A stretch of 33,600 nt of DNA from a virus: the UHGV virus genome UHGV-1067530. The stretch is one strand, 5' to 3'. Below, piece by piece: positions 5,242 through 13,976 of the stretch (positions within the stretch are counted from its first letter, which is position 1; every line of letters starts with the position of its first letter). Both the position numbers and the translations under genes were made by a program. The notes beneath the pieces were generated by a model. The model was given only the letters and a program-made list of their open reading frames with translations, did no database searches and had not been told where the DNA came from.

Positions 5242-5706
5242 TTACTTTGGATATACACTGTCAAGATAAATGTCAGCTTCCATTCTACGTCTGTTTTTCA
5301 GGCCGTTTGAAGTGACTTTCTTACCTTTGACTGTAACCTTGTTCCACCACTGCATAGCTTCTGCACAACCTACCTTATTACCAGCGTTGTGGCGCTTGAT
5401 AAATGTAGAGTCCTGCATAGCTGTGATGCCAATGTTGTATGTTTCACTTACAAGTGCGTCAAACTCATTCTGGGAAGTTGGAACCTTGATGGATTTGTTC
5501 ACTGCTGCAACGAACTTTTCAACATCTGCGAGAAGATACTGTTCAGCTTGTTCAGCCGTAATTTTCATACCCATCTTAACAGGTTTTCCGTCAATACGGA
5601 TTGTACCATACCCGATTGTTGGGATTCCGGCAGAATCTTCGTAAGCCTCTAGCTTAAGACCTTCAAAGAACTTAATAGCTTCTAAACCTTTTCTTGAGAG
5701 TTGCAT
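5242..5706 (-). CDS. Lysozyme / endolysin, T4-lysozyme-like (glycoside hydrolase family 24)
   Basis: N-terminal FEGLKLEAYEDSAGIPTIGYG matches the T4 lysozyme catalytic motif (E...D...T, [21 protein letters not shown]). Confidence 0.8.
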   Translation of the reverse strand: MQLSRKGLEAIKFFEGLKLEAYEDSAGIPTIGYGTIRIDGKPVKMGMKITAEQAEQYLLADVEKFVAAVNKSIKVPTSQNEFDALVSETYNIGITAMQDSTFIKRHNAGNKVGCAEAMQWWNKVTVKGKKVTSNGLKNRRRMEADIYLDSVYPK

Positions 5707-6338
5707 TATGCCTCCCCTGCTGGGTTAACAGTAACTGTTGCCACATTAGATGTTACAGAGCCACCTGCGCCAGTAACTACACAGGTGTAGCTTCCTGAAT
5801 CAGCAGCGGTTGCACCTTCTTTGGTGTAAGTTGCAGTAGTTGCATCGAGGATATCTTCCTCACCTTTCTTCCACTGGTAACCTGTCGCACCTGTTGCCGC
5901 AACATTCAGCGTTAAGGTCTCACCTTCAGTGATTTCTTGATTGGTTGGCTGCTGAGTGATTGCTGGTGGCTTGATAGCATCCTTCAACTTAGCATTCAAC
6001 ATTGAGAACGGCTTAACCATTGCCAGCCATTCACAATAAATTGTATCAACGTCTTTACCATTGATAATTGCATATTGTAAGTCCATGAAGAAGTCAGAAG
6101 TTCTCATTTGAGCACCGATGCTGTAAAGCAACTCATCACTAAATGGGACTTTGTAGTCTGGTTTGTAGTCAAACTCCTCAACTTCTGCAATATCAGCTTC
6201 AGGCCAATACGAACTATAGGTAAGTGGTAAAATAGCCTCTTGATATGTTCTAAAATCATATCTCTTACCAGCTTTTACGTTTGCAATGAAGCCCTTCACA
6301 AACTCTTTGAAGTCTGGGTAAGTCTTTGCTTTAATCAT
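5706..6338 (-). CDS. hypothetical protein with C-terminal Ig-like domain (210 aa)
   Basis: C-terminus (ITQQPTNQEITEGETLTLNVAATGATGYQWKKG...SGSYTCVVTGAGGSVTSNVATVTV) reads as an Ig-like fold; N-terminal ~120 aa is paralogous to the 6335-6706 product. Confidence 0.55.
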   Translation of the reverse strand: MIKAKTYPDFKEFVKGFIANVKAGKRYDFRTYQEAILPLTYSSYWPEADIAEVEEFDYKPDYKVPFSDELLYSIGAQMRTSDFFMDLQYAIINGKDVDTIYCEWLAMVKPFSMLNAKLKDAIKPPAITQQPTNQEITEGETLTLNVAATGATGYQWKKGEEDILDATTATYTKEGATAADSGSYTCVVTGAGGSVTSNVATVTVNPAGEA

Positions 6339-8416: not shown

Positions 8417-9832
8417 ATGAGCGAATTATTTAAACATGCGCACCTTCATGCAGGTCGAACTGAAAATGGTGCTGTAAACCATACTTCATCAATGTCTGCT
8501 CTTGTAGACTTTTACAAAGCTGCTGGTTCAAGCCGTAGCAACGTAGAAATCTTACCAGACCTGTTCTACAAAGCTTTGCGTGAGGATGTTGATGTTGCAG
8601 TTCGTATTTTACTGCATATGCGAGATGTACGAGAAGGTATTGGTGAGCGTAAAGCCTTCAGAACTGTTTTGCTTCAAGCAATTGAAGATAAAGTTTTAGA
8701 GCCTACACAGGTTCTTCGCATTATGGATAAGATTGCAGAACTTGGTCGTTTTGATGACTTCAAAATCTTCGTAGGTACTCGTTTCGAGACAGATGCCTTC
8801 AAACATTTAGAAGCAGCATTACTAGACCCTGCAACAGCAGGTTTGGCAGCCAAGTGGCTACCACGAGTCAAACCACGTCATAAGCAGTTTGTAAAACGTT
8901 TCTGTAAGTTTGCCAACTTGAGTGAGAAAGAGTATCGCACACTGTTGTCTGCGCTCTCTGATACAGTTGAGCAAAAAATCTCTGCTAATGAGTTTGGCAA
9001 GATTGACTACAGTAAGATTCCTTCACTTGCTGCTGCACGTTACCAAAAACTGTTTAACCGCAAAGATGGAGAACGCTACAAAGCTTACATCGAGTCCTTA
9101 TCAAAGGGTGAGACTAAGATTAATGCTGGTGCTGTTTACCCATACGATGTGATTAAGTCTGTTAAGTATGGTAATGCAGATGTTGCTAATGAGCAGTGGA
9201 AAGCACTACCAAACTGGATGGCAGAGGGTGAAAACATTCTCTGTATGTCTGATGTTTCACGTTCAATGTCTTGGGTGAATTTTGGCTCCATTACTACTCT
9301 GGATATTGGTGTATCACTTGCATTGTATGTAGCAGAACGCAATACAGGTTGCTTTAAAAATGAGTTAATGGTTTACTCAACAAACCCTCACTTCATCGAA
9401 CTGAGTGGTGATTTACGAAACCGTCATCGTCAGGTGATGCGGCACGTTGAATATGGCTCAACTAACTTACAAGCAGCTTTTGACCGTATTCTTGAGACAG
9501 GTAAAAGAAATAACTTGACTCAGAAAGATATGCCAAGTAAGCTTATCATCTTCTCAGATATGGAGTTCAATCAGGTTGATGGAGCTAACGGTCGCACAAA
9601 CTTTGAAGCAATCCAGAGTAAGTACAAGAAAGCTGGATACGAAATGCCACAACTGGTATTCTGGTACTTAGCAAACCGTAATGGTACTTGCGAAGTATCT
9701 GTTAAGGATAACGGTGTAGCAATGGTATCTGGTTTCTCTCCAGCCACTTTAAAAGCTCTGCTTGGTGGTGAGAAGTTTGACCCTATCAGCGTAATGCTCA
9801 AAGCAGTAATGATTGACCGTTATATCTGGTAA
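8417..9832 (+). CDS. vWA-domain protein with N-terminal alpha-helical domain; possibly Ro60/TROVE-like (DUF2828-type)
   Basis: MIDAS motif in ILCMSDVSRSMS (DxSxS), downstream YGSTNL (T) and LIIFSDMEF (D) at vWA-typical spacing; N-terminal ~270 aa has no motif I recognise; the TROVE assignment is inference. Confidence 0.55.
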   Translation: MSELFKHAHLHAGRTENGAVNHTSSMSALVDFYKAAGSSRSNVEILPDLFYKALREDVDVAVRILLHMRDVREGIGERKAFRTVLLQAIEDKVLEPTQVLRIMDKIAELGRFDDFKIFVGTRFETDAFKHLEAALLDPATAGLAAKWLPRVKPRHKQFVKRFCKFANLSEKEYRTLLSALSDTVEQKISANEFGKIDYSKIPSLAAARYQKLFNRKDGERYKAYIESLSKGETKINAGAVYPYDVIKSVKYGNADVANEQWKALPNWMAEGENILCMSDVSRSMSWVNFGSITTLDIGVSLALYVAERNTGCFKNELMVYSTNPHFIELSGDLRNRHRQVMRHVEYGSTNLQAAFDRILETGKRNNLTQKDMPSKLIIFSDMEFNQVDGANGRTNFEAIQSKYKKAGYEMPQLVFWYLANRNGTCEVSVKDNGVAMVSGFSPATLKALLGGEKFDPISVMLKAVMIDRYIW

Positions 9833-9850: not shown

Positions 9851-9879
9851 TTGACAATGTGTTTGATACCCTTTAATAT
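9851..9879 (+). promoter_or_regulatory. Putative sigma70-like promoter heading the tRNA array
   Basis: TTGACA (9851-9856), 17-nt spacer, TAATAT (9874-9879); the -35 sits inside the inverted repeat GGGTAT...ATACCC. Confidence 0.45.
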
Positions 9880-10162: not shown

Positions 10163-10239
10163 TTGACAGAAGACCAATTACAGCAAACTTAATCTTATTC
10201 ATCTGAAGGTAAATCGGACAAAGAAGAGATTTGGTCTGG
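10163..10239 (+). repeat. Inverted-repeat-bounded element, copy 1 (TTGACAGAAGACC-AA-TTACAGCAA ... TTGGTCTGG)
   Basis: 5' box CAGAAGACC + TTACAGCAA, 3' box GGTCTGG; termini AGACCAA/TTGGTCT are complementary. Confidence 0.6.
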
Positions 10240-10251
10240 TCATTAAGAATT

Positions 10252-10329: not shown

Positions 10330-10397
10330 TTTACAGAAGACCGTTTACAGCAATATTTATTAAATTTTTAGCGGAAAAATTGAAAGATGTGGTCTGG
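10330..10397 (+). repeat. Inverted-repeat-bounded element, copy 2 (TTTACAGAAGACCGTTTACAGCAA ... GGTCTGG)
   Basis: 5' 27 nt identical to copy 4; internal AT-rich hairpin AATTTTT/AAAAATT. Confidence 0.6.
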
Positions 10398-10410
10398 TAA
10401 TACTAAACAT

Positions 10411-10487: not shown

Positions 10488-10556
10488 AATTTAGGAGAGA
10501 AGCGATTGCTCACCGATTTGTAAGGTGCAAGTCCTTAGCCTGAATAGAAATTAAAT

Positions 10557-10649: not shown

Positions 10650-10727
10650 GGTTATGTAGTTTAATTTGGTTAAAATACTCCCCTGTCACGGGAGATGATG
10701 AGGGTTCAAATCCCTTCGTAACCGCCA
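10650..10727 (+). tRNA. tRNA-Asp (anticodon GTC)
   Basis: Acceptor GGTTATG/CGTAACC, anticodon stem CTCCC/GGGAG, loop CTGTCAC, T-loop TTCAAAT, CCA. Confidence 0.75.
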
Positions 10728-10788
10728 ATTTTGAGAGGGCTATTTAGCCCCTCCCTTAAAGAGTTCTTACGAGTATTCTTTAAAGGAG

Positions 10789-10862
10789 CAGAAGACCAAA
10801 TACAGCAAGTTACTTAAAATTTCAAGCCAATTTAATTTTGAAAAATTTAAAACTTGGTCTGG
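10789..10862 (+). repeat. Inverted-repeat-bounded element, copy 3 (CAGAAGACC-AAA-TACAGCAA ... TTGGTCTGG)
   Basis: Same terminal boxes; interior is a long AT-rich imperfect hairpin (CAAGTTACTTAAAATTTCAA / TTGAAAAATTTAAAACTTG). Confidence 0.6.
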
Positions 10863-10871
10863 CTCAACAAA

Positions 10872-11006
10872 TTTACAGAAGACCGTTTACAGCAAAACTT
10901 AAACAATCTATTTCTCGGTAAAGAAAAGGAGAAGGTTCGATTCCTTCACTCGGCAGGTGTCGAGTTGGTGTAATGGTAGCACTTAAGATGATAAACAACG
11001 GTCTGG
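10872..11006 (+). repeat. Inverted-repeat-bounded element, copy 4 (TTTACAGAAGACCGTT ... AACGGTCTGG), containing tRNA-like fragments
   Basis: 8-bp terminal complementarity AGACCGTT/AACGGTCT; interior holds a T-arm (GAAGG-TTCGATT-CCTTC) followed by a D-arm-like segment. Confidence 0.6.
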
Positions 11007-11007
11007 T

Positions 11008-11151
11008 AATTATCTTTGTAGATAAGTTATTAAGCTTACCTGTGAGTATGCGACCACAAAGGGTGAAAGGGTAAATTCTAGATTTAAACCCAAAAAGGCA
11101 CATCGCTACAGACCTTAAGCAAGTCTGGGTAGCTTATCTACAAAGATAATT
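11008..11151 (+). repeat. 19-bp perfect inverted repeat (AATTATCTTTGTAGATAAG / CTTATCTACAAAGATAATT) flanking 106 nt
   Basis: Read directly: 11008-11026 is the exact reverse complement of 11133-11151; the interior contains CAGACC...GTCTGG. Confidence 0.7.
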
Positions 11152-11155
11152 TAAT

Positions 11156-11231
11156 GGAAGTGTAGCAGAATGGTGATGCGGCAGACTTTTAATCTGACAG
11201 GCGATGGGTTCGAATCCCTCCACTTCTACCA
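11156..11231 (+). tRNA. tRNA-Lys (anticodon TTT)
   Basis: Acceptor GGAAGTG/CACTTCT (G1-U72 wobble), anticodon loop CTTTTAA, T-loop TTCGAAT, discriminator A, CCA. Confidence 0.7.
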
Positions 11232-11235
11232 ATAT

Positions 11236-11312
11236 GGTTCAGTCGCAGATAAGGTAATGCAAGGGTCTCATAAGCCCTATGAATGTGGGTTCGATTCCCA
11301 TCTGAACCTCCA
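11236..11312 (+). tRNA. tRNA-Met or Ile2 (anticodon CAT)
   Basis: Acceptor GGTTCAG/CTGAACC, anticodon stem AGGGT/GCCCT, loop CTCATAA, T-arm TGGG-TTCGATT-CCCA, CCA. Confidence 0.75.
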
Positions 11313-11314
11313 AT

Positions 11315-11389
11315 TGTGGGTTAGCATAAATGGTAATGCAAACGGCTGATAACCGTTAGAAGAGGGTTCGATACCCTCACCTACAACCA
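11315..11389 (+). tRNA. tRNA-Ile (anticodon GAT)
   Basis: Acceptor TGTGGGT/ACCTACA, D-arm GCA/TGC, anticodon stem AACGG/CCGTT, loop CTGATAA, T-arm GAGGG-TTCGATA-CCCTC, CCA. Confidence 0.75.
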
Positions 11390-11404
11390 ATTTCAATAAA
11401 GTTG

Positions 11405-11433
11405 TTGACATTGAGATGTGACTACTTTATAGT
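11405..11433 (+). promoter_or_regulatory. Putative sigma70-like promoter inside the tRNA array
   Basis: aaagttgTTGACA (11405-11410), 17-nt spacer, TATAGT (11428-11433). Confidence 0.45.
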
Positions 11434-11439
11434 AACTAA

Positions 11440-11726
11440 AATACTTCAGAATATGTATAATTCAAACACCAATACATGAGCGTTAGACGTAACACAATGT
11501 GGGGAAATTTGTTGTACATATTCTGAATAGTTTTCGTTGCGTAGCGTCTATTTTGCAAATTTAAAATAAATGCAAACGACAATGTTTTTCTGGCAGTAGC
11601 TTGATAGGCTAAACACCAGTGAGGTCTTCCAATCCCTCATCAAAGAATTTGGCGTACTAGCCCACGGTATGATTAATAAGGTGGGCATCTTTAAGGGCTT
11701 TCTAAGAGAGTCTTTAAAGATAATTA
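11440..11726 (+). ncRNA. Candidate structured non-coding RNA region (ORF-free, multiple hairpins)
   Basis: No ORF of 60 aa or more; 13-bp perfect inverted repeat TTCAGAATATGTA (11445-11457) / TACATATTCTGAA (11515-11527); hairpins GCCCAC...GTGGGC, TGAGG...CCTCA, TTTGCA...TGCAAA; sits downstream of the 11405 promoter. Confidence 0.35.
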
Positions 11727-11808
11727 CGGGGCGTATCTCAGCGGTCTTCTAAACCGCCGTTAACCGAGTAAGTGGAGTATGCGGGTTCGAGTCCTGCCGC
11801 CTCGACCA
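11727..11808 (+). tRNA. tRNA-like, Arg(TCT)-type anticodon arm, atypical (no canonical D-arm, 23-nt segment before the T-arm)
   Basis: Acceptor CGGGGCG/CGCCTCG, anticodon stem GCGGT/ACCGC with loop CTTCTAA, T-arm GCGGG-TTCGAGT-CCTGC, discriminator A, CCA; the D-arm 3' strand is not identifiable. Confidence 0.45.
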
Positions 11809-11950
11809 ATTAGTTAGCAGATTACTTAGACGACCTAAGCGGGTCTTCCTGTAGGGAGGTGGTCTGTATCTCATGTTTTCCAGAACATGTAAATAATCTG
11901 AGAAGGGGCTTTACAGTGTTGAGATAATACGGTAAGCTTCGAATTATAGT

Positions 11951-12033
11951 ATGGGACGATGTTAAGACTCTAAGGCATGAGCAACGGCTTCCAACACCGT
12001 TTCAAAGGGGTTCAACTCCTCCGTCCCATGCCA
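11951..12033 (+). tRNA. tRNA-like, Trp(CCA)-type anticodon loop, atypical (7 extra nt in the D region)
   Basis: Acceptor ATGGGAC/GTCCCAT perfect, hairpin ACGGC-TTCCAAC-ACCGT, T-arm AGGGG-TTCAACT-CCTCC, discriminator G, CCA; D region is 26 nt. Confidence 0.4.
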
Positions 12034-12046
12034 AAGTCTTATTAGG

Positions 12047-12134
12047 GGTAGGTAGCGGCTAATGGTAGCCAAACTGTCTTGAAAACAGTTGCCACTGTAG
12101 AGATACGGTGAGGGTTCGACTCCTTTACTTACCG
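12047..12134 (+). tRNA. tRNA-Ser (anticodon TGA), long variable arm; CCA not encoded
   Basis: Acceptor GGTAGGT/ACTTACC, anticodon stem ACTGT/ACAGT, loop CTTGAAA, ~20-nt variable arm, T-arm GAGGG-TTCGACT-CCTTT, discriminator G. Confidence 0.7.
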
Positions 12135-12137
12135 CCT

Positions 12138-12391
12138 AATAAGATTTAAAGCCAAGCTTCATTCGGATGTCGCTTTGGTATCCCGCGTGTATTGTCGTAC
12201 ACACTGATAAAACACCTAGTAGGTGTCACGGAGAAGAGATAATATCAAGCTCTCCAAAGGTTCTAGTCACCGGATTAAACAAGACTATGCAAAGACCTTT
12301 TTAGGTCTTTTTAGAGGGCTTCTAAGGTTATTACAGCTTGTTGTGGAACCTTGTTGCTTAGGTTCTTAGAAGTTCTCTAAAAAGATTTAAT
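12138..12391 (+). ncRNA. Candidate structured non-coding region (hairpins, terminator-like stem, long CTTCTAAG/CTTAGAAG hairpin)
   Basis: ORF-free; hairpins GTGTA...TACAC, ACACCTA...TAGGTGT, GGAGA...TCTCC; AAAGACC-TTTTT-AGGTCTTT followed by a T-run (about 12288-12312); inverted repeat CTTCTAAG (12320) / CTTAGAAG (12365). Confidence 0.3.
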
Positions 12392-12469
12392 GGGAGATTG
12401 ACGGTAATTGGTAAACCTACCATCCTTAGAAGTTGGTGTTTGAGGGTTCGAATCCCTTGTCTCCTACCA
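12392..12469 (+). tRNA. tRNA with Leu-type anticodon TAG but short (5-nt) variable loop
   Basis: Acceptor GGGAGAT/GTCTCCT, anticodon stem CCATC/GTTGG (one U-U), loop CTTAGAA, T-arm GAGGG-TTCGAAT-CCCTT, discriminator A, CCA. Confidence 0.55.
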
Positions 12470-12476
12470 AATTAAT

Positions 12477-12552
12477 GCAGGTGTAGCAAAATGGTTATGC
12501 GGCTGACTCTTAATCAGTAAGACGATGGGTTCAATTCCCTCCACCTGTACCA
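12477..12552 (+). tRNA. tRNA-Lys (anticodon CTT)
   Basis: Acceptor GCAGGTG/CACCTGT, anticodon stem GCTGA/TCAGT, loop CTCTTAA, T-loop TTCAATT, discriminator A, CCA; close paralog of the 11156 tRNA. Confidence 0.7.
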
Positions 12553-12558
12553 GACATT

Positions 12559-12634
12559 TGGGTCATAGTTTATATGGTTAAAATTCGAGTTTTGCAAACT
12601 TGGGAACTGAGTTCAATTCTCAGTGACTCCACCA
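12559..12634 (+). tRNA. tRNA-Ala (anticodon TGC)
   Basis: G3-U70 wobble present in the acceptor (TGGGTCA/TGACTCC), anticodon stem CGAGT/ACTTG, loop TTTGCAA, T-arm CTGAG-TTCAATT-CTCAG, discriminator A, CCA; 1-72 is unpaired (T/C). Confidence 0.7.
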
Positions 12635-12640
12635 ATTAGT

Positions 12641-12715
12641 GCATCCATAGTTTAAACGGGAAAATTACAGTCTTCCAAACTGAGGTTGAGGGTTCGATTC
12701 CCTCTGGATGCTCCA
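12641..12715 (+). tRNA. tRNA-Gly (anticodon TCC)
   Basis: Acceptor GCATCCA/TGGATGC perfect, anticodon loop CTTCCAA, T-arm GAGGG-TTCGATT-CCCTC, CCA. Confidence 0.75.
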
Positions 12716-12721
12716 AACAAT

Positions 12722-12798
12722 GCTGCTTTCGTATAATTGGCTATTACACATCCCTTGTAAGGATGGAAATGCAGGTTCGAGTCCTGTGAGCAGCACCA
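12722..12798 (+). tRNA. tRNA-Thr (anticodon TGT)
   Basis: Acceptor GCTGCTT/GAGCAGC, anticodon stem CATCC/GGATG, loop CTTGTAA, T-arm GCAGG-TTCGAGT-CCTGT, discriminator A, CCA. Confidence 0.8.
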
Positions 12799-12799
12799 A

Positions 12800-12893
12800 T
12801 TCAGAGGTCAAGTGAAAGACCGCTGGTGTCAACTGAAGACCGTAACAAATTCCACGGAGTTGAGTTAGCGGCACAACTTCAGACCTCTTTCAC
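12800..12893 (+). repeat. Repeat/palindrome-rich spacer related to the CAGAAGACC element family
   Basis: CTGAAGACCGTAACA (12836-) resembles the 5' box; AGAGGTC...GACCTCT and CTGAAG...CTTCAG inverted repeats. Confidence 0.4.
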
Positions 12894-12968
12894 ACTCGCT
12901 TAGTTTATATGGTAAAACATCACCCTTACAAGATGAAGAAAAAGGTTCAAGTCCTTTAGTGAGTACCA
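12894..12968 (+). tRNA. tRNA-Val (anticodon TAC)
   Basis: Acceptor ACTCGCT/AGTGAGT, D-stem GTTT, anticodon loop CTTACAA, T-arm AAAGG-TTCAAGT-CCTTT, discriminator A, CCA. Confidence 0.65.
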
Positions 12969-12969
12969 T

Positions 12970-13047
12970 GTTCCAGTATCCCAATTGGCAGAGGATGCAA
13001 GCTCAAACCTTGTATTAGTGACGGTTCGAATCCGTCTTGGAACACCA
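12970..13047 (+). tRNA. tRNA with Leu-type anticodon CAA but short (6-nt) variable loop
   Basis: Acceptor GTTCCAG/TTGGAAC, D-loop AATTGGCAGAG, anticodon stem TGCAAG/CTTGTA with loop CTCAAAC, T-arm GACGG-TTCGAAT-CCGTC, discriminator A, CCA. Confidence 0.55.
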
Positions 13048-13065
13048 ATTTAAAGAGGCTATTTA

Positions 13066-13623
13066 ATGAGATATTTGAAGTATGCTTCATGGATTTTCTT
13101 AGCTTTACTAGACCCAATTGCAGCAATCCTAGCAGTTATCTTAGCACCTTTCGTAGTTCCATTCTACAGTGAGAAGAAAGGACATCTACCTTTTGGATTC
13201 AGATGGATGGAGACCTATGACAACCCGATTGATGGTGACGAAGGTCACGTTAAAAGATGGGCTAAGATTAGAAAGATTGGTAAGCTGGGTGTCTACATGC
13301 AGAGAGTTGGGTGGCTCTGGAGAAACAAAGCTTATAACTTCTCTTACCATGTATTAGGAAGAGATGTAAAAGATGTTACTAAGTGGAGAGGTAATATCAA
13401 CGTAAGTTCTGACCCTGAAGATAATCAGACTGGTTATCTCCTAATGTGGAACAACAATGCTTGGGGATTATTCGCTTTTATTCCGTCAATTAAAGTCTTT
13501 GGTAAACAGTTTTACTGGAGAATTTATGTTGGATGGAAACTAAAAAGTGTTGTCCCAGAAGAAAGAGCATTCTCAAGGGAAAGAGTTATGTTGGCATTCT
13601 TTATTCATCCACTGAGAAAGTAA
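13066..13623 (+). CDS. hypothetical membrane protein (185 aa) embedded in the tRNA array
   Basis: ORF with RBS aaagagg upstream; N-terminal hydrophobic helix WIFLALLDPIAAILAVILAPFVVPF; Trp/Arg-rich remainder. Confidence 0.6.
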   Translation: MRYLKYASWIFLALLDPIAAILAVILAPFVVPFYSEKKGHLPFGFRWMETYDNPIDGDEGHVKRWAKIRKIGKLGVYMQRVGWLWRNKAYNFSYHVLGRDVKDVTKWRGNINVSSDPEDNQTGYLLMWNNNAWGLFAFIPSIKVFGKQFYWRIYVGWKLKSVVPEERAFSRERVMLAFFIHPLRK

Positions 13624-13631
13624 AGATTTAA

Positions 13632-13707
13632 AGGGGATTAGTTTACAAGGTTAAAACCTCGGTCTTTGAAATCGAAGAAGTTGGTTCAATTCCAACATCC
13701 CCCGCCA
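13632..13707 (+). tRNA. tRNA-Gln (anticodon TTG)
   Basis: Acceptor AGGGGAT/ATCCCCC with unpaired 1-72, discriminator G, anticodon stem TCGGT/ATCGA, loop CTTTGAA, T-arm GTTGG-TTCAATT-CCAAC, CCA. Confidence 0.7.
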
Positions 13708-13709
13708 AT

Positions 13710-13788
13710 GCTCCATTACTCCAATTGGCAGAGAGGCCAGACTTAAAATCTGTGTTATGTATCGGTTCGAATCCGATATGGAGTACCA
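13710..13788 (+). tRNA. tRNA with Leu-type anticodon TAA but short (7-nt) variable loop
   Basis: Acceptor GCTCCAT/ATGGAGT, D-loop AATTGGCAGAG, anticodon stem CCAGA/TCTGT, loop CTTAAAA, T-arm ATCGG-TTCGAAT-CCGAT, discriminator A, CCA. Confidence 0.55.
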
Positions 13789-13793
13789 ATTTT

Positions 13794-13869
13794 AGCGGTA
13801 TAGCATAACTGGCAATGCAGCAGTCTCTGAAGCTGTCCTATTAAGGTTCAAATCCTTATGCCGCTGCCA
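13794..13869 (+). tRNA. tRNA-Gln (anticodon CTG)
   Basis: Acceptor AGCGGTA/TGCCGCT, D-arm GCAT/ATGC, anticodon loop CTCTGAA, T-arm TAAGG-TTCAAAT-CCTTA, discriminator G, CCA. Confidence 0.7.
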
Positions 13870-13900
13870 CTTCTAAGGGTTCTTACGAGAGTCCTTAAAT

Positions 13901-13976
13901 GTGGCCTTATCATAAACGGTAATGACCCATGCTGTGAACATGGTCTATACGGGTTCAAATCCCGTAGGTCACCCCA
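13901..13976 (+). tRNA. tRNA-His (anticodon GTG)
   Basis: Acceptor GTGGCCT/AGGTCAC, D-arm TCAT/ATGA, anticodon stem CCATG/CATGG, loop CTGTGAA, T-arm ACGGG-TTCAAAT-CCCGT, discriminator C, CCA; position -1 is T, not G. Confidence 0.8.

What the first reader, a model, noticed from the sequence alone, without database searches (positions are those of the whole stretch)
10756..13897. Hairpins with a conserved 14-nt loop (GTTCTTACGAG..) and differing stems, plus a recurring GCTTCTAAGG box
Hairpin 10756-10783 is TTAAAGA-[GTTCTTACGAGTAT]-TCTTTAA and hairpin 13874-13897 is TAAGG-[GTTCTTACGAGAGT]-CCTTA. The loop matches at 12 of 14 positions while the stems differ yet stay complementary, which is the pattern expected for a functional RNA hairpin recognised through its loop. 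Related boxes occur at 11696-11722 and 12316-12372. They may be processing or protein-binding sites in the polycistronic tRNA precursor.
Basis: seen in the sequence. Interest (0 to 1): 0.55.

Follow-up and report, generated by a model that had tools for sequence, protein, structure and literature searches.

The report
Conserved leader hairpins in phage tRNA array
The two look-alike hairpins are real, conserved RNA stem-loops in the spacers of a Felix O1-type phage's tRNA gene array, but their supposed 14-nt loop is mostly base-paired; they belong to a small, previously undescribed family restricted to this phage group, most likely processing or stability signals in the long tRNA precursor.

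Summary
The window is Salmonella phage Mushroom (Felixounavirus). The "14-nt loop" is not a loop: it extends the stem through tandem G·U pairs to a UACG tetraloop (H2: UAAGGGUUCU-UACG-AGAGUCCUUA). Natural variants turn those G·U pairs into A-U.

The two "boxes" are also hairpins of the same family: H3 (11687-11721) and H4 (12307-12384). Each ends 3-8 nt before a tRNA 5' end; H1 precedes a Y-RNA-like gene.

Evidence for a sense-strand RNA element:
- Pair-preserving substitutions in all members.
- G·U versus A·C oppositions of 38:5.

The 15-nt core GTTCTTACGAGAGTC is identical in an Erwinia phage that lacks the Ro60-like gene. The family is therefore independent of Ro, and it is confined to Ounavirinae. 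HNH endonuclease insertions lie elsewhere.

Best reading (about 0.4): cis-acting leader or spacer hairpins that guide endonucleolytic processing or stabilisation of the polycistronic precursor, analogous to RNase III action on T4 tRNA precursors. The nuclease is inferred, not shown.

More interesting in passing: four Y-RNA-like genes interleaved with the tRNAs carry a UACAGCAA motif. That motif is strongly enriched next to Ro-like genes in diverse phages.

The parts
10733..10753 (+). GC-rich hairpin A (GAGAGGGCU-AUUU-AGCCCCUC) directly upstream of H1.
   Evidence: Read from the sequence. Its core GGGCU/AGCCC is paired in the fold of 10650-10870. Loop and stem variants occur across loci.
10751..10788 (+). 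H1. Core hairpin 10756-10783 is UUAAAGAGUUCU-UACG-AGUAUUCUUUAA: 12 pairs, one U·U, one G·U. A 4-bp CUCC/GGAG basal extension surrounds it. H1 lies between tRNA-Asp and the Y-like RNA E3.
Evidence: RNAfold gives -13.3 kcal/mol, z -3.7, and the hairpin is kept in the 221-nt context fold. R1 scores 46-50 bits in all Felix, Susp and Moogle loci. Only 2 of 28 sites vary.
10786..10865 (+). Y-RNA-like element E3, which starts where H1's basal extension ends (GGAG and GAGC overlap). Listed as context for H1.
   Evidence: Repeat families D6, D13 and D18. The fold shows an outer helix GAGC/GCUC, a 3x1 internal loop, an inner helix AGACCAA/UUGGUCU, then UACAGCAA.
11660..11686 (+). GC-stem hairpin (GCCCAC...GUGGGC) directly upstream of H3.
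   Evidence: Fold. Erwinia phage Pistou has the compensated version GCCCCG...CGGGGC.
11687..11721 (+). It ends 5 nt before the tRNA-Arg(UCU)-like gene. It is a diverged paralog of H1/H2 and the positional ortholog of the canonical copy in Erwinia phages.
   Evidence: -17.6 kcal/mol, z -5.2. Variants preserve pairing: Sf13/Sf18 change C-G to U·G and G·U to G-C, L014 changes G-C to G·U, and L012 has an AG insertion that lengthens the stem. R1 hit of 16.6 bits. Leader alignment with Pistou.
11727..11805 (+). tRNA-Arg(UCU)-like gene served by the H3 leader.
   Evidence: Rfam tRNA, 31.7 bits. Annotated tRNA-Arg TCT in relatives.
12291..12310 (+). Terminator-like hairpin AAAGACC-UUUUUA-GGUCUUU followed by a U run; it overlaps the 5' arm of H4.
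   Evidence: Read from the sequence. Only the loop varies across loci.
12307..12384 (+). It ends 7 nt before tRNA-Leu(UAG).
   Evidence: RNAfold of 12285-12392 gives -37.6 kcal/mol, z -5.2. RNAalifold on 9 variants finds 20 pairs with none broken; 8 pairs vary, including U-A to G-C. H4 is retained upstream when an HNH gene is inserted into tRNA-Leu.
12392..12469 (+). tRNA-Leu(UAG), the first tRNA of the block behind H4.
   Evidence: ARAGORN; Rfam.
13874..13897 (+). H2: UAAGGGUUCU-UACG-AGAGUCCUUA, 10 pairs including tandem G·U/U·G. It lies in the 31-nt spacer between tRNA-Gln(CUG) and tRNA-His and ends 3 nt before tRNA-His.
   Evidence: RNAfold gives -8.0 kcal/mol, and the hairpin is kept in the MFE and centroid of the 183-nt precursor fold. 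Variants GGG to GGA (G·U to A-U) occur in 9 loci, and GAGAGU to GAGAAU (U·G to U-A) in L003. R1 scores 45-50 bits in all relatives. Only 2 of 24 sites vary, against 14 of 76 in tRNA-Gln.
13901..13976 (+). tRNA-His(GUG), directly behind H2.
   Evidence: ARAGORN; Rfam, 53.3 bits.

Best explanation
H1 and H2, together with H3, H4 and the alternative 'form B' hairpin, form a family of paralogous stem-loops. They fold in the sense-strand RNA of the polycistronic tRNA/small-RNA precursor of Felix O1-like phages (Ounavirinae).

Their stems are AU- and GU-rich, 10-20 bp long, and capped by a U-A-N-R loop. The canonical core is GUUCU-UACG-AGAGUC. They sit in 5' leaders or spacers, usually right after a GC-rich hairpin and 3-8 nt before the first nucleotide of a tRNA. 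H1 instead sits before a Y-RNA-like gene.

I think they act in cis as structural punctuation of the precursor. In this reading they are recognition or entry sites for a host endoribonuclease: double-strand cleavage by RNase III for the long ones, or structure-guided RNase E cleavage in the flanking AU-rich single strands. Cleavage would separate the blocks of the precursor and could leave a hairpin end that slows exonucleases.

Shown: the hairpins exist, are conserved in structure and position, work only on the transcribed strand, and are independent of Ro and of homing endonucleases.

Inferred: that they are cleaved or bound at all, and by which enzyme.
For: The extended stem is supported by folding and by pair counts: 91.7% of cells paired against 36-62% for slid registers, and 3 pairs change on both sides.

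Substitutions preserve pairing in every family member. H2 and H1. H3. H4: 20 pairs, none broken in 9 variants. Form B: 3 double compensatory changes. The two copies outside the array have compensated lower stems.

Sense-strand G·U versus A·C oppositions are 38:5 overall, and 15:1 for the six Mushroom paralogs. That fits an RNA on the + strand, the strand of all the tRNAs and of the promoters at 9851, 9942 and 11405.

Position is constant. The core always lies 7 nt (H2) or 13 nt (Kolesnikvirus copy) before a tRNA 5' end in 21 viral contigs. H3, H4 and the Pistou copy close long spacers that contain a promoter or terminator, just before the first tRNA of a block.

H4's 20-bp stem has the size of a classical double-stranded RNase III substrate.

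Precedent: E. coli RNase III takes part in maturing phage T4-encoded tRNAs (review PMC4810235).
Against: No RNA-end data exist for any of these phages, so no cleavage has been shown.

H2 has only 10 bp, short for RNase III, unless the possible GCCAC/GUGGC flanking helix counts.

RNase III and RNase E do not need a specific apical sequence, so they do not explain why 15 nt of the core are identical between Felix-like and Erwinia phages, or why H1 and H2 vary less than a neighbouring tRNA gene.

A stable hairpin left on a tRNA 3' trailer would, if anything, hinder exonucleolytic trimming.

Most tRNAs in the array have no such hairpin.
Confidence: 0.4

Rival explanations
1. The hairpin is a sequence-specific binding site for a dedicated protein, phage or host. 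Its apical part (UUCU-UACG-AGAG) is read by a factor that regulates processing, stability or modification of the neighbouring RNAs. This is.
For: The 15-nt core GTTCTTACGAGAGTC is identical in Felixounavirus, Mooglevirus and Suspvirus H2 and in the Kolesnikvirus leader copy, although the surrounding leader is only partly alignable. UUACGAG or UUAACGAAG persists in two tandem hairpins of Yersinia phage P778. H1 and H2 each have only 2 variable sites. The 16-nt core is found only in Ounavirinae-type contigs.
Against: At the same leader position many phages carry H3 (loop UAA, slipped register) or the very different form B, so the core is dispensable there. No candidate protein co-varies with the hairpin: the Ro-like gene is absent from Pistou, and the 'RegB-like' gene is a widespread vs.1-type protein.
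Confidence: 0.2
2. The hairpins are generic structural insulators or relics. They are spacer modules copied along with tRNA cassettes. They are kept only because a self-contained hairpin stops leader sequence from mispairing with adjacent tRNAs. No trans-acting factor is involved.
For: The members are clearly paralogs with shared base-stem sequence. The two hairpin forms and the two tRNA-Arg alleles occur in all four combinations, as expected for freely recombining modules. Different tRNAs follow the hairpin in different phages: His, Arg, Leu-UAG and Leu-CAA.
Against: The core is identical across genera, and variability is lower than in a tRNA gene. Most tightly packed tRNAs in the array manage without any hairpin. 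Two further copies lie outside the tRNA array.
Confidence: 0.15
3. The hairpins are cis-acting transcription elements (put-like or nut-like). The nascent hairpin acts on host RNA polymerase so that it reads through the many terminator-like structures of the array and of neighbouring operons.
For: Felix O1 encodes no RNA polymerase or known polymerase modifier, and how it passes its many terminators is an open question (PMC3185647). Family hairpins sit directly after terminator-like hairpins: H4, and the two copies at KP143762 32611 and 32753. They recur about every 0.6-1.6 kb along the array.
Against: There is no similarity to boxA/boxB or to the two-stem put RNAs. An element placed after a terminator cannot affect that terminator. 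Nothing here was or could be tested computationally.
Confidence: 0.1
4. The hairpins are part of the Ro60-like/Y-RNA system: a binding site for the vWA/Ro-like protein, or a marker of its substrates.
For: The Ro-like gene (8417-9832; DUF2828 + DUF7788) lies just upstream of the array. H1 abuts the Y-like RNA E3, and the same tRNA-Asp, hairpin(s), Y-like RNA order is kept in Yersinia phage P778.
Against: Erwinia phage Pistou has the canonical hairpin but no Ro-like gene and no UACAGCAA elements. In 67 diverse Ro-like loci (572 kb) the model gives no significant hit, and TTACGAG occurs 17 times on the sense strand against 23 on the antisense strand. H2, H3 and H4 precede ordinary tRNAs.
Confidence: 0.04
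5. The element acts at the DNA level, as a homing-endonuclease target or insertion site, an operator palindrome or direct repeat (AGRGTYCTTA twice, 12 nt apart), or a weak promoter.
For: HNH genes are frequent in this array. The two arms of H2 are also near direct repeats. TTAAAG-N17-TTTAAA has promoter-like spacing. The two extra copies lie in a repeat-rich intergenic region upstream of a promoter.
Against: HNH insertions map inside tRNA genes with a target duplication, and H4 is left intact. G·U versus A·C asymmetry of 38:5 means the 'palindromes' are imperfect as DNA but perfect as sense RNA. Natural variants improve pairing while reducing direct-repeat similarity. The promoter scan does not call these sites.
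Confidence: 0.05

Closest known systems
RNase III processing of the phage T4 tRNA cluster precursor
   Same: It is a phage-encoded polycistronic tRNA precursor made by host polymerase. A double-stranded leader element lies 5' of the first tRNA of a block. The host is an enterobacterium. [quoted passage not shown]
   Different: No sequence similarity was tested or is expected. Cleavage of the Felix-type hairpins has never been shown. There are several copies per array, and one (H2) lies between two tightly packed tRNAs. The details of the T4 site rest on my memory of the older literature, not on a tool result.
Phage T7 intergenic RNase III sites (R1.1 type)
   Same: Both are intergenic hairpins in a polycistronic phage transcript, with stems interrupted by small internal loops. 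H1 is 4 + 12 bp, the two 32.6-kb copies are 4-6 + 12 bp, and the Gln-H2-His fold is 5 + 10 bp around a 3x3 loop. After cleavage such a hairpin would remain as a protective 3' end.
   Different: The T7 sites separate mRNAs, not tRNAs. Total helix length here is mostly 10-17 bp, at or below the usual two helical turns; only H4 reaches 20 bp. Proximal and distal box rules were not evaluated.
UNCG-tetraloop hairpins
   Same: H1, H2 and the Kolesnikvirus copy are capped by UACG.
   Different: The closing pair is U-A, not the C-G that gives the extra stability of cUNCGg. Other family members have UAA, UAAG or UAAA loops, and P778 hairpin A folds with a UUAC loop. The tetraloop type is therefore not a family constant.
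Bacterial Y RNAs (YrlA/YrlB) bound by Ro60/Rsr
   Same: A Ro60-like gene lies next to small structured RNAs, one with a tRNA-like module. H1 lies directly 5' of one of them. Chen et al. 2014 describe the YrlA architecture (PMC4201824).
   Different: The hairpins themselves have no closing bulged helix, no GNCGAAN0-1G motif and no tRNA-like module. They also occur in a phage without Ro. The resemblance concerns their neighbours E1-E4, not H1 and H2.
Lambda nut boxB / HK022 put antitermination RNAs
   Same: They are short cis-acting hairpins in nascent phage RNA placed near terminators.
   Different: boxB is a 5-bp GC stem with a GNRA-like pentaloop next to boxA, and put is a two-stem RNA of about 70 nt. 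Neither matches, and no Rfam family was hit.

Membership tests
RNase III processing hairpin | Continuous or coaxial double-stranded RNA of about two helical turns (about 20 bp), or two helices of about 10 bp around an internal loop. | tested here: inconclusive
   H4 has a 20-pair basal stem. H3 has 16 bp, H1 12 + 4 bp and H2 only 10 bp. H2 gains a possible extra 5 bp across a 3x3 loop in the precursor fold.
RNase III processing hairpin | rnc-dependent cleavage with a 2-nt 3' overhang in vivo or in vitro. | not testable with these tools
   No RNA-end data were found for any Felix-like phage. My one literature search for transcript-mapping data was too loosely worded to be informative.
UNCG tetraloop hairpin | A UNCG loop closed by a C-G pair. 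| tested here: not met
   The loop is UACG but the closing pair is U-A in H1, H2 and the Pistou copy.
Intrinsic (rho-independent) terminator | A GC-rich stem followed by a run of U. | tested here: not met
   The stems are AU/GU-rich and are followed by AAAGGAG (H1) or AAAUG (H2). The terminator scan does not call them. The GC hairpins just upstream of H4 and of the 32.6-kb copies do look like terminators.
Y RNA / YrlA (Ro60-bound) | The 5' and 3' ends form a bulged helix with a Ro-binding motif (GNCGAAN0-1G in YrlA), and the RNA is encoded next to Ro60. | tested here: not met
   H1 and H2 are simple hairpins without that motif. They are present in Pistou, which lacks Ro, and are not enriched in 67 Ro-like loci. 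The motif definition is from PMC4201824.
Any curated RNA family (Rfam 15) | A score at or near a family's gathering threshold. | tested here: not met
   There are no hits at H1, H2 or H3. H4 gives only chance-level microRNA-precursor matches, which reflect a long hairpin.
tRNA fragment / T-arm remnant | A 5-bp stem with a 7-nt UUCRANY loop, or recognisable flanking tRNA parts. | tested here: not met
   H2 shares the TAAGG/CCTTA stem with the T arm of the preceding tRNA-Gln. However, its loop region is 14 nt, pairs internally, and is not called by ARAGORN or Rfam.
Homing-endonuclease insertion or target site | HEG insertions map at the element, and the element is lost or split when a HEG is present. 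| tested here: not met
   In L011 and L033 the HNH gene is inserted after the first 11 nt of tRNA-Leu, which are duplicated, and H4 is intact upstream. The FelixO1 HNH genes lie elsewhere in the array.
Sigma-70 promoter | -35 and -10 hexamers with at least 9 of 12 matches at 16-18 nt spacing. | tested here: not met
   The scan finds promoters at 9851, 9942 and 11405 but none at the hairpins.

The most novel reading that the evidence does not exclude
The invariant core GUUCU-UACG-AGAGUC is the recognition site of a dedicated, still unknown factor that controls the fate of the phage's tRNA and small-RNA precursor. One form of this is a cis-acting RNA that makes host RNA polymerase read through the highly structured array. 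Another is a specific nuclease or chaperone site that times the release of tRNA blocks. Either would be a new kind of phage RNA control element specific to Ounavirinae. Separately, the neighbouring UACAGCAA-bearing RNAs may be a widespread, undescribed family of phage Y RNAs partnered with the DUF2828 Ro-like protein.
Probability: 0.12. Interest if true: 0.7.

Novelty: new member of a known kind. Interest (0 to 1): 0.38.

Why it matters
Felix O1-type phages are used for Salmonella typing and in phage therapy. They carry more than 20 tRNA genes, yet nothing is known about how their long tRNA precursor is made and cut.

A conserved, multi-copy leader hairpin gives a concrete handle for experiments. 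It marks where to look for processing events and which nucleotides to mutate. It also corrects the picture of a 'loop-recognised' motif.

The follow-up showed that the same array encodes several Y-RNA-like genes next to a Ro60-like protein. In phage Bas63 that protein was recently reported to counter the Ppl defence system (PMC11482910). That makes the RNA partners of the protein directly testable.

If the hairpins turn out to be ordinary RNase III or RNase E sites, the result is useful for annotation but not surprising.

Tried and rejected
- **Rfam.** Searches at gathering and permissive thresholds matched no family at the hairpins or the Y-like elements.
- **Homing-endonuclease target idea.** Rejected: the insertions map inside tRNA-Leu and H4 is retained.
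- **Ro60/Y-RNA link for the hairpins.** Rejected on Pistou and on the 67 Ro-like loci.
- **RegB-like endoribonuclease (CPT_Mushroom127).** Considered as a co-varying partner and dropped. tblastn shows it is a widespread T4 vs.1-type protein in about 1,950 phage records, so its distribution is uninformative and the annotation is doubtful.
- **Relatives of Yersinia phage P778.** None found in the phage collection or in IMG/VR, so that lineage is a single data point.
- **Direct-repeat or operator reading of the two arms.** Disfavoured by the variants and by the G·U asymmetry.
- **Anticodon-loop and T-arm mimicry of the core.** Considered by eye and rejected, because the required stems do not pair.
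- **MAFFT alignment of H1/H2 with H3.** It put H3 out of structural register: H3 has an inserted C and a slipped apical helix. The covariance model was therefore built from H1 and H2 only.
- **E. coli genome search with a 37-nt H2 query.** Nothing found, but the test is insensitive at that length.
- **Literature search for Felixounavirus transcript mapping.** It was too loosely worded and returned nothing relevant.
- **Alignment.** The third row (FelixO1) used wrongly guessed coordinates and should be ignored.

Full report
**Identity of the window.** The 3.7 kb around the finding is 100% identical to Salmonella phage Mushroom (KP143762; Ounavirinae, Felixounavirus). It is 95-99% identical to Felix O1 and some 200 relatives. 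The region is a tRNA array on the + strand: 24 genes by ARAGORN, plus a tRNA-Arg-like gene seen only by Rfam. The array lies directly downstream of a 471-aa protein with DUF2828 and a vWA-type DUF7788 domain. This protein is annotated 'RNA-binding' or 'Ro-like' in relatives. Sigma-70-like promoters on the + strand lie at 9851, 9942 and 11405. The last is the P45 promoter noted in the Felix O1 genome paper (PMC3185647). That paper does not mention the hairpins.

**Checking the observation.** Both hairpins read exactly as described, and GTTCTTACGAG occurs exactly twice in the window. In 23 of 200 dinucleotide-preserving shuffles of the window, some 11-mer is shared by two hairpins with stems of at least 5 bp. 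What makes the elements real is conservation. A covariance model built from them finds both, at 45-50 bits, in every Felixounavirus, Suspvirus and Mooglevirus locus that covers the positions.

**The '14-nt loop' is mostly stem.** RNAfold extends both stems through the supposed loop to a UACG tetraloop.
- H2 is UAAGGGUUCU-UACG-AGAGUCCUUA: 10 pairs, two of them tandem G·U/U·G.
- H1 is UUAAAGAGUUCU-UACG-AGUAUUCUUUAA: 12 pairs with one U·U, plus a CUCC/GGAG extension.

The natural variants fit this model.
- In nine loci H2 has GGG to GGA, turning G·U into A-U.
- In L003 H2 has GAGAGU to GAGAAU, turning U·G into U-A.

On ten distinct H1/H2 sequences the 12-pair model gives 91.7% paired cells, against 36-62% for registers slid by 1-3 columns. 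Three pairs change on both sides. Both hairpins survive in folds of their full precursor context.

The stems are also not unrelated. The two copies are paralogs that differ at two pairs, and both differences are compensated.

**The 'boxes' are hairpins of the same family.** 11687-11721 (H3) is a 16-bp hairpin (-17.6 kcal/mol, z -5.2). 12307-12384 (H4) is a long hairpin with a 20-pair basal stem. H3 shares TAAGGG...GAGAGUC.UUUAAA with H2. It has an inserted C and a slipped apical register.

All members show pair-preserving change.
- H3 in Shigella phages Sf13 and Sf18 changes C-G to U·G and G·U to G-C. L014 changes G-C to G·U.
- H4 has no broken pair in nine variants. Eight pairs vary, including U-A to G-C.
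- At the H3 position, seven loci including Felix O1 carry a different, branched 'form B' hairpin. The Moogle version of it has three double compensatory changes.

The two hairpin forms and the two alleles of the following tRNA-Arg occur in all four combinations.

**Strand and level of action.** Across the family, transition-type oppositions in the stems are G·U 38 times and A·C 5 times on the + strand. For the six independent Mushroom paralogs the count is 15:1. A DNA palindrome or a minus-strand element should show no such bias. The two arms of H2 are also near direct repeats (AGGGUUCUUA and AGAGUCCUUA). However, the observed variants lower that similarity while improving pairing. The elements are therefore sense-strand RNA structures.

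**Position.**
- H2 ends 3 nt before tRNA-His.
- H3 ends 5 nt before the tRNA-Arg-like gene.
- H4 ends 7 nt before tRNA-Leu(UAG).
- H1 ends 2 nt before the Y-like RNA E3.

H1, H3 and H4 each follow a GC-rich hairpin. For H4 that hairpin is terminator-like.

HNH homing-endonuclease genes, common in this array, are inserted inside tRNA genes. In L011 and L033 the insertion follows the first 11 nt of tRNA-Leu, which are duplicated, and H4 is left intact. The hairpins are therefore not homing sites.

**Distribution.** A filter-free search of the whole Mushroom genome finds H1, H2 and H3, plus two weaker copies outside the window at KP143762 32611-32639 and 32753-32781. These two copies are sense to the local genes. 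Each follows a terminator-like hairpin and is followed by GGT-rich repeats. They persist in wV8, Sf19 and BPS15Q2 with compensated lower stems.

The key comparison is Erwinia phage Pistou (Kolesnikvirus). It keeps the synteny but has no Ro-like gene and no UACAGCAA elements. Even so, it carries AAAGGUUCU-UACG-AGAGUCUUU (26 bits, E 2e-4). This copy lies at the orthologous H3 position, after the compensated GC hairpin GCCCCG/CGGGGC and 7 nt before tRNA-Leu(CAA). Its 15-nt core GTTCTTACGAGAGTC is identical to that of H2.

Yersinia phage P778 has a Ro-like protein only 53% identical to the window's. After tRNA-Asp it has two tandem hairpins with UUACGAG and UUAACGAAG cores, followed by a Y-like RNA.

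The 16-nt core occurs in IMG/VR only on 84-94 kb Ounavirinae-type contigs, always in a tRNA leader. In 67 diverse loci with Ro-like proteins the model gives no significant hit, and TTACGAG is not strand-biased.

H1 and H2 each have 2 variable sites, against 14 of 76 in the adjacent tRNA-Gln. The figures in that table for tRNA-His, E3 and hairpin A are inflated by indels and should be ignored.

**Mechanism.** Four things are shown:
- a paralogous family of sense-strand RNA hairpins;
- structure and position are conserved;
- the core sequence is conserved in some copies;
- the family is independent of Ro and of homing endonucleases.

The function is inferred. I favour cis-acting punctuation of the polycistronic precursor. 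In this reading the hairpins are an entry or recognition site for a host endoribonuclease, either RNase III on the double-stranded stem or structure-guided RNase E in the AU-rich flanks. Cleavage would separate blocks and could leave protective ends.

In favour:
- The leader position before the first tRNA of a block.
- The 20-bp stem of H4.
- The two-helix shapes of H1, of the 32.6-kb copies and of the Gln-H2-His fold.
- The T4 precedent (PMC4810235).

Against:
- There are no RNA-end data.
- H2 is short.
- These nucleases do not explain the invariant core.

The invariant core keeps a sequence-specific factor in play as the main rival. That rival is itself weakened because H3 and form B replace the core at the same position. 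Antitermination, a passive insulator or relic role, and DNA-level readings rank lower.

**Comparison with known systems.** The nearest analogues by function are the RNase III step in T4 tRNA maturation and the T7 intergenic RNase III hairpins. Membership of either cannot be claimed, because size is met only by H4 and cleavage is untestable here. The hairpins are not cUNCGg hairpins (the closing pair is U-A), terminators, Y RNAs or nut/put elements, and they match no Rfam family. No paper found describes them.

**Side result.** The spacers also hold four elements with a common architecture: E1 10164-10242, E2 10331-10400, E3 10786-10865 and E4 10873-11009. Each has an outer helix of 4 bp (3 bp in P778), a 3x1 internal loop, an inner helix of 5-8 bp and then single-stranded UUACAGCAA.

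E4 encloses a cloverleaf-like module in the permuted order described for YrlA. ARAGORN calls a permuted construct a tRNA with one of three artificial anticodon loops.

The P778 versions covary: AGACC/GGUCU becomes GGACUGU/ACAGUCC and GGAUUC/GAAUCC.

In the 67 diverse Ro-like loci, ACAGCAA occurs 170 times on the Ro-gene strand against 35 on the other. Of the sense-strand sites, 48% have an exact 6-bp closing helix, against 24% at random positions.

This looks like an undescribed, widespread family of phage Ro-associated RNAs. The PhageMaP preprint only speculated that some Bas63 'tRNA genes' might be Y RNAs (PMC11482910).

**Verdict.** The finding is real but more ordinary than proposed. It is a lineage-specific family of conserved leader and spacer hairpins in a phage tRNA precursor, with an unexplained invariant core.

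Noticed in passing
window 10164-10242, 10331-10400, 10786-10865, 10873-11009: Four Y-RNA-like elements (E1-E4) are interleaved with the tRNAs just downstream of the Ro60-like gene. Each has a 4-bp outer helix (3 bp in P778), a 3x1 internal loop (A-G/C-A opposite G/A), an inner helix AGACC../..GGUCU and then single-stranded UUACAGCAA. E4 encloses a permuted tRNA-like module (T arm, closed acceptor, D-like arm), as in YrlA. The helices covary in Yersinia phage P778. In 67 diverse phage loci with Ro-like proteins, ACAGCAA occurs 170 times on the gene strand against 35 on the other, and 48% of those sites have a 6-bp closing helix against 24% at random positions. There is no Rfam match. This is probably an undescribed phage Y-RNA family.
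   Followed up: partly
window 11008-11151: A further structured RNA candidate (E5) lies between E4 and tRNA-Lys. It has a near-perfect closing stem of about 24 bp around a branched core. The fold is -48.3 kcal/mol with z -6.3.
   Followed up: no
window 13900-13976: The phage tRNA-His has U at position -1 and C73, so the G-1 that bacterial HisRS normally needs is not encoded. Relatives have U or A at -1. tRNAscan-based annotations call this gene a pseudo-tRNA.
   Followed up: no
window 11727-11805: The tRNA-Arg(UCU)-like gene is atypical: ARAGORN does not call it and Rfam tRNA scores only 31.7 bits. By eye it has a very short D region and a long variable region. Relatives carry a second, ordinary allele (GCACCC...). 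The two alleles combine freely with the two leader-hairpin forms.
   Followed up: partly
L011 about 5530-6006 and L033 3887-4339 (homologous to window about 12392-12402): An HNH homing-endonuclease gene is inserted after the first 11 nt of tRNA-Leu(UAG). Those 11 nt (GGGAGATTGAC) are duplicated, so an intact tRNA gene is restored downstream. Felix O1 has three other HNH genes at different places in the array.
   Followed up: partly
outside the window: KP143762 32579-32955 (L040): This intergenic region has two terminator-like hairpins, each followed by a diverged family hairpin and then by GGT-rich repeats (GGTAAGGTAAAGTATGG...). It is repeated 2-4 times per genome in relatives. It is annotated as a direct repeat in wV8 and lies at the very start of the record as a 'repeat_region' in phage pinkbiff. 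It may be a terminal-repeat or origin region, or a small-RNA locus.
   Followed up: partly
window 10488-10556: The spacer before tRNA-Tyr contains a T-arm-like hairpin (AAGGTGCAAGTCCTT), grouped with genuine T arms by the repeat finder. It is probably a decayed tRNA gene.
   Followed up: no
window about 11952-12033: This is a possible unusual tRNA-like element: acceptor-like GGGACG...CGTCCC followed by ATGCCA, a T arm GGGGTTCAACTCCTC, and an oversized anticodon-type loop. It was seen by eye only. Neither ARAGORN nor Rfam (E up to 5) calls it.
   Followed up: no
window 13066-13623: The ORF embedded in the array is annotated 'holin' in Mushroom. It is a DUF7338 protein (E 1e-62). It has 58-62% identical homologs in 142-180 kb phage genomes. 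The holin label looks unsupported.
   Followed up: no
outside the window: KP143762 85872-86420 (CPT_Mushroom127): This gene is annotated 'endoribonuclease, T4 RegB-like'. By tblastn it matches the widespread T4 vs.1-type proteins in about 1,950 phage records, some of them annotated as lysozyme-like. The RegB label is doubtful.
   Followed up: partly
window 13866-13870 with 13901-13905: In the fold of the Gln-H2-His precursor, the 3' end of tRNA-Gln (GCCAC) pairs with the 5' end of tRNA-His (GUGGC) around H2, across a 3x3 internal loop. This gives an interrupted 15-bp helix that competes with the tRNA-His acceptor stem. Conservation was not tested; L023 has GUGUC.
   Followed up: no
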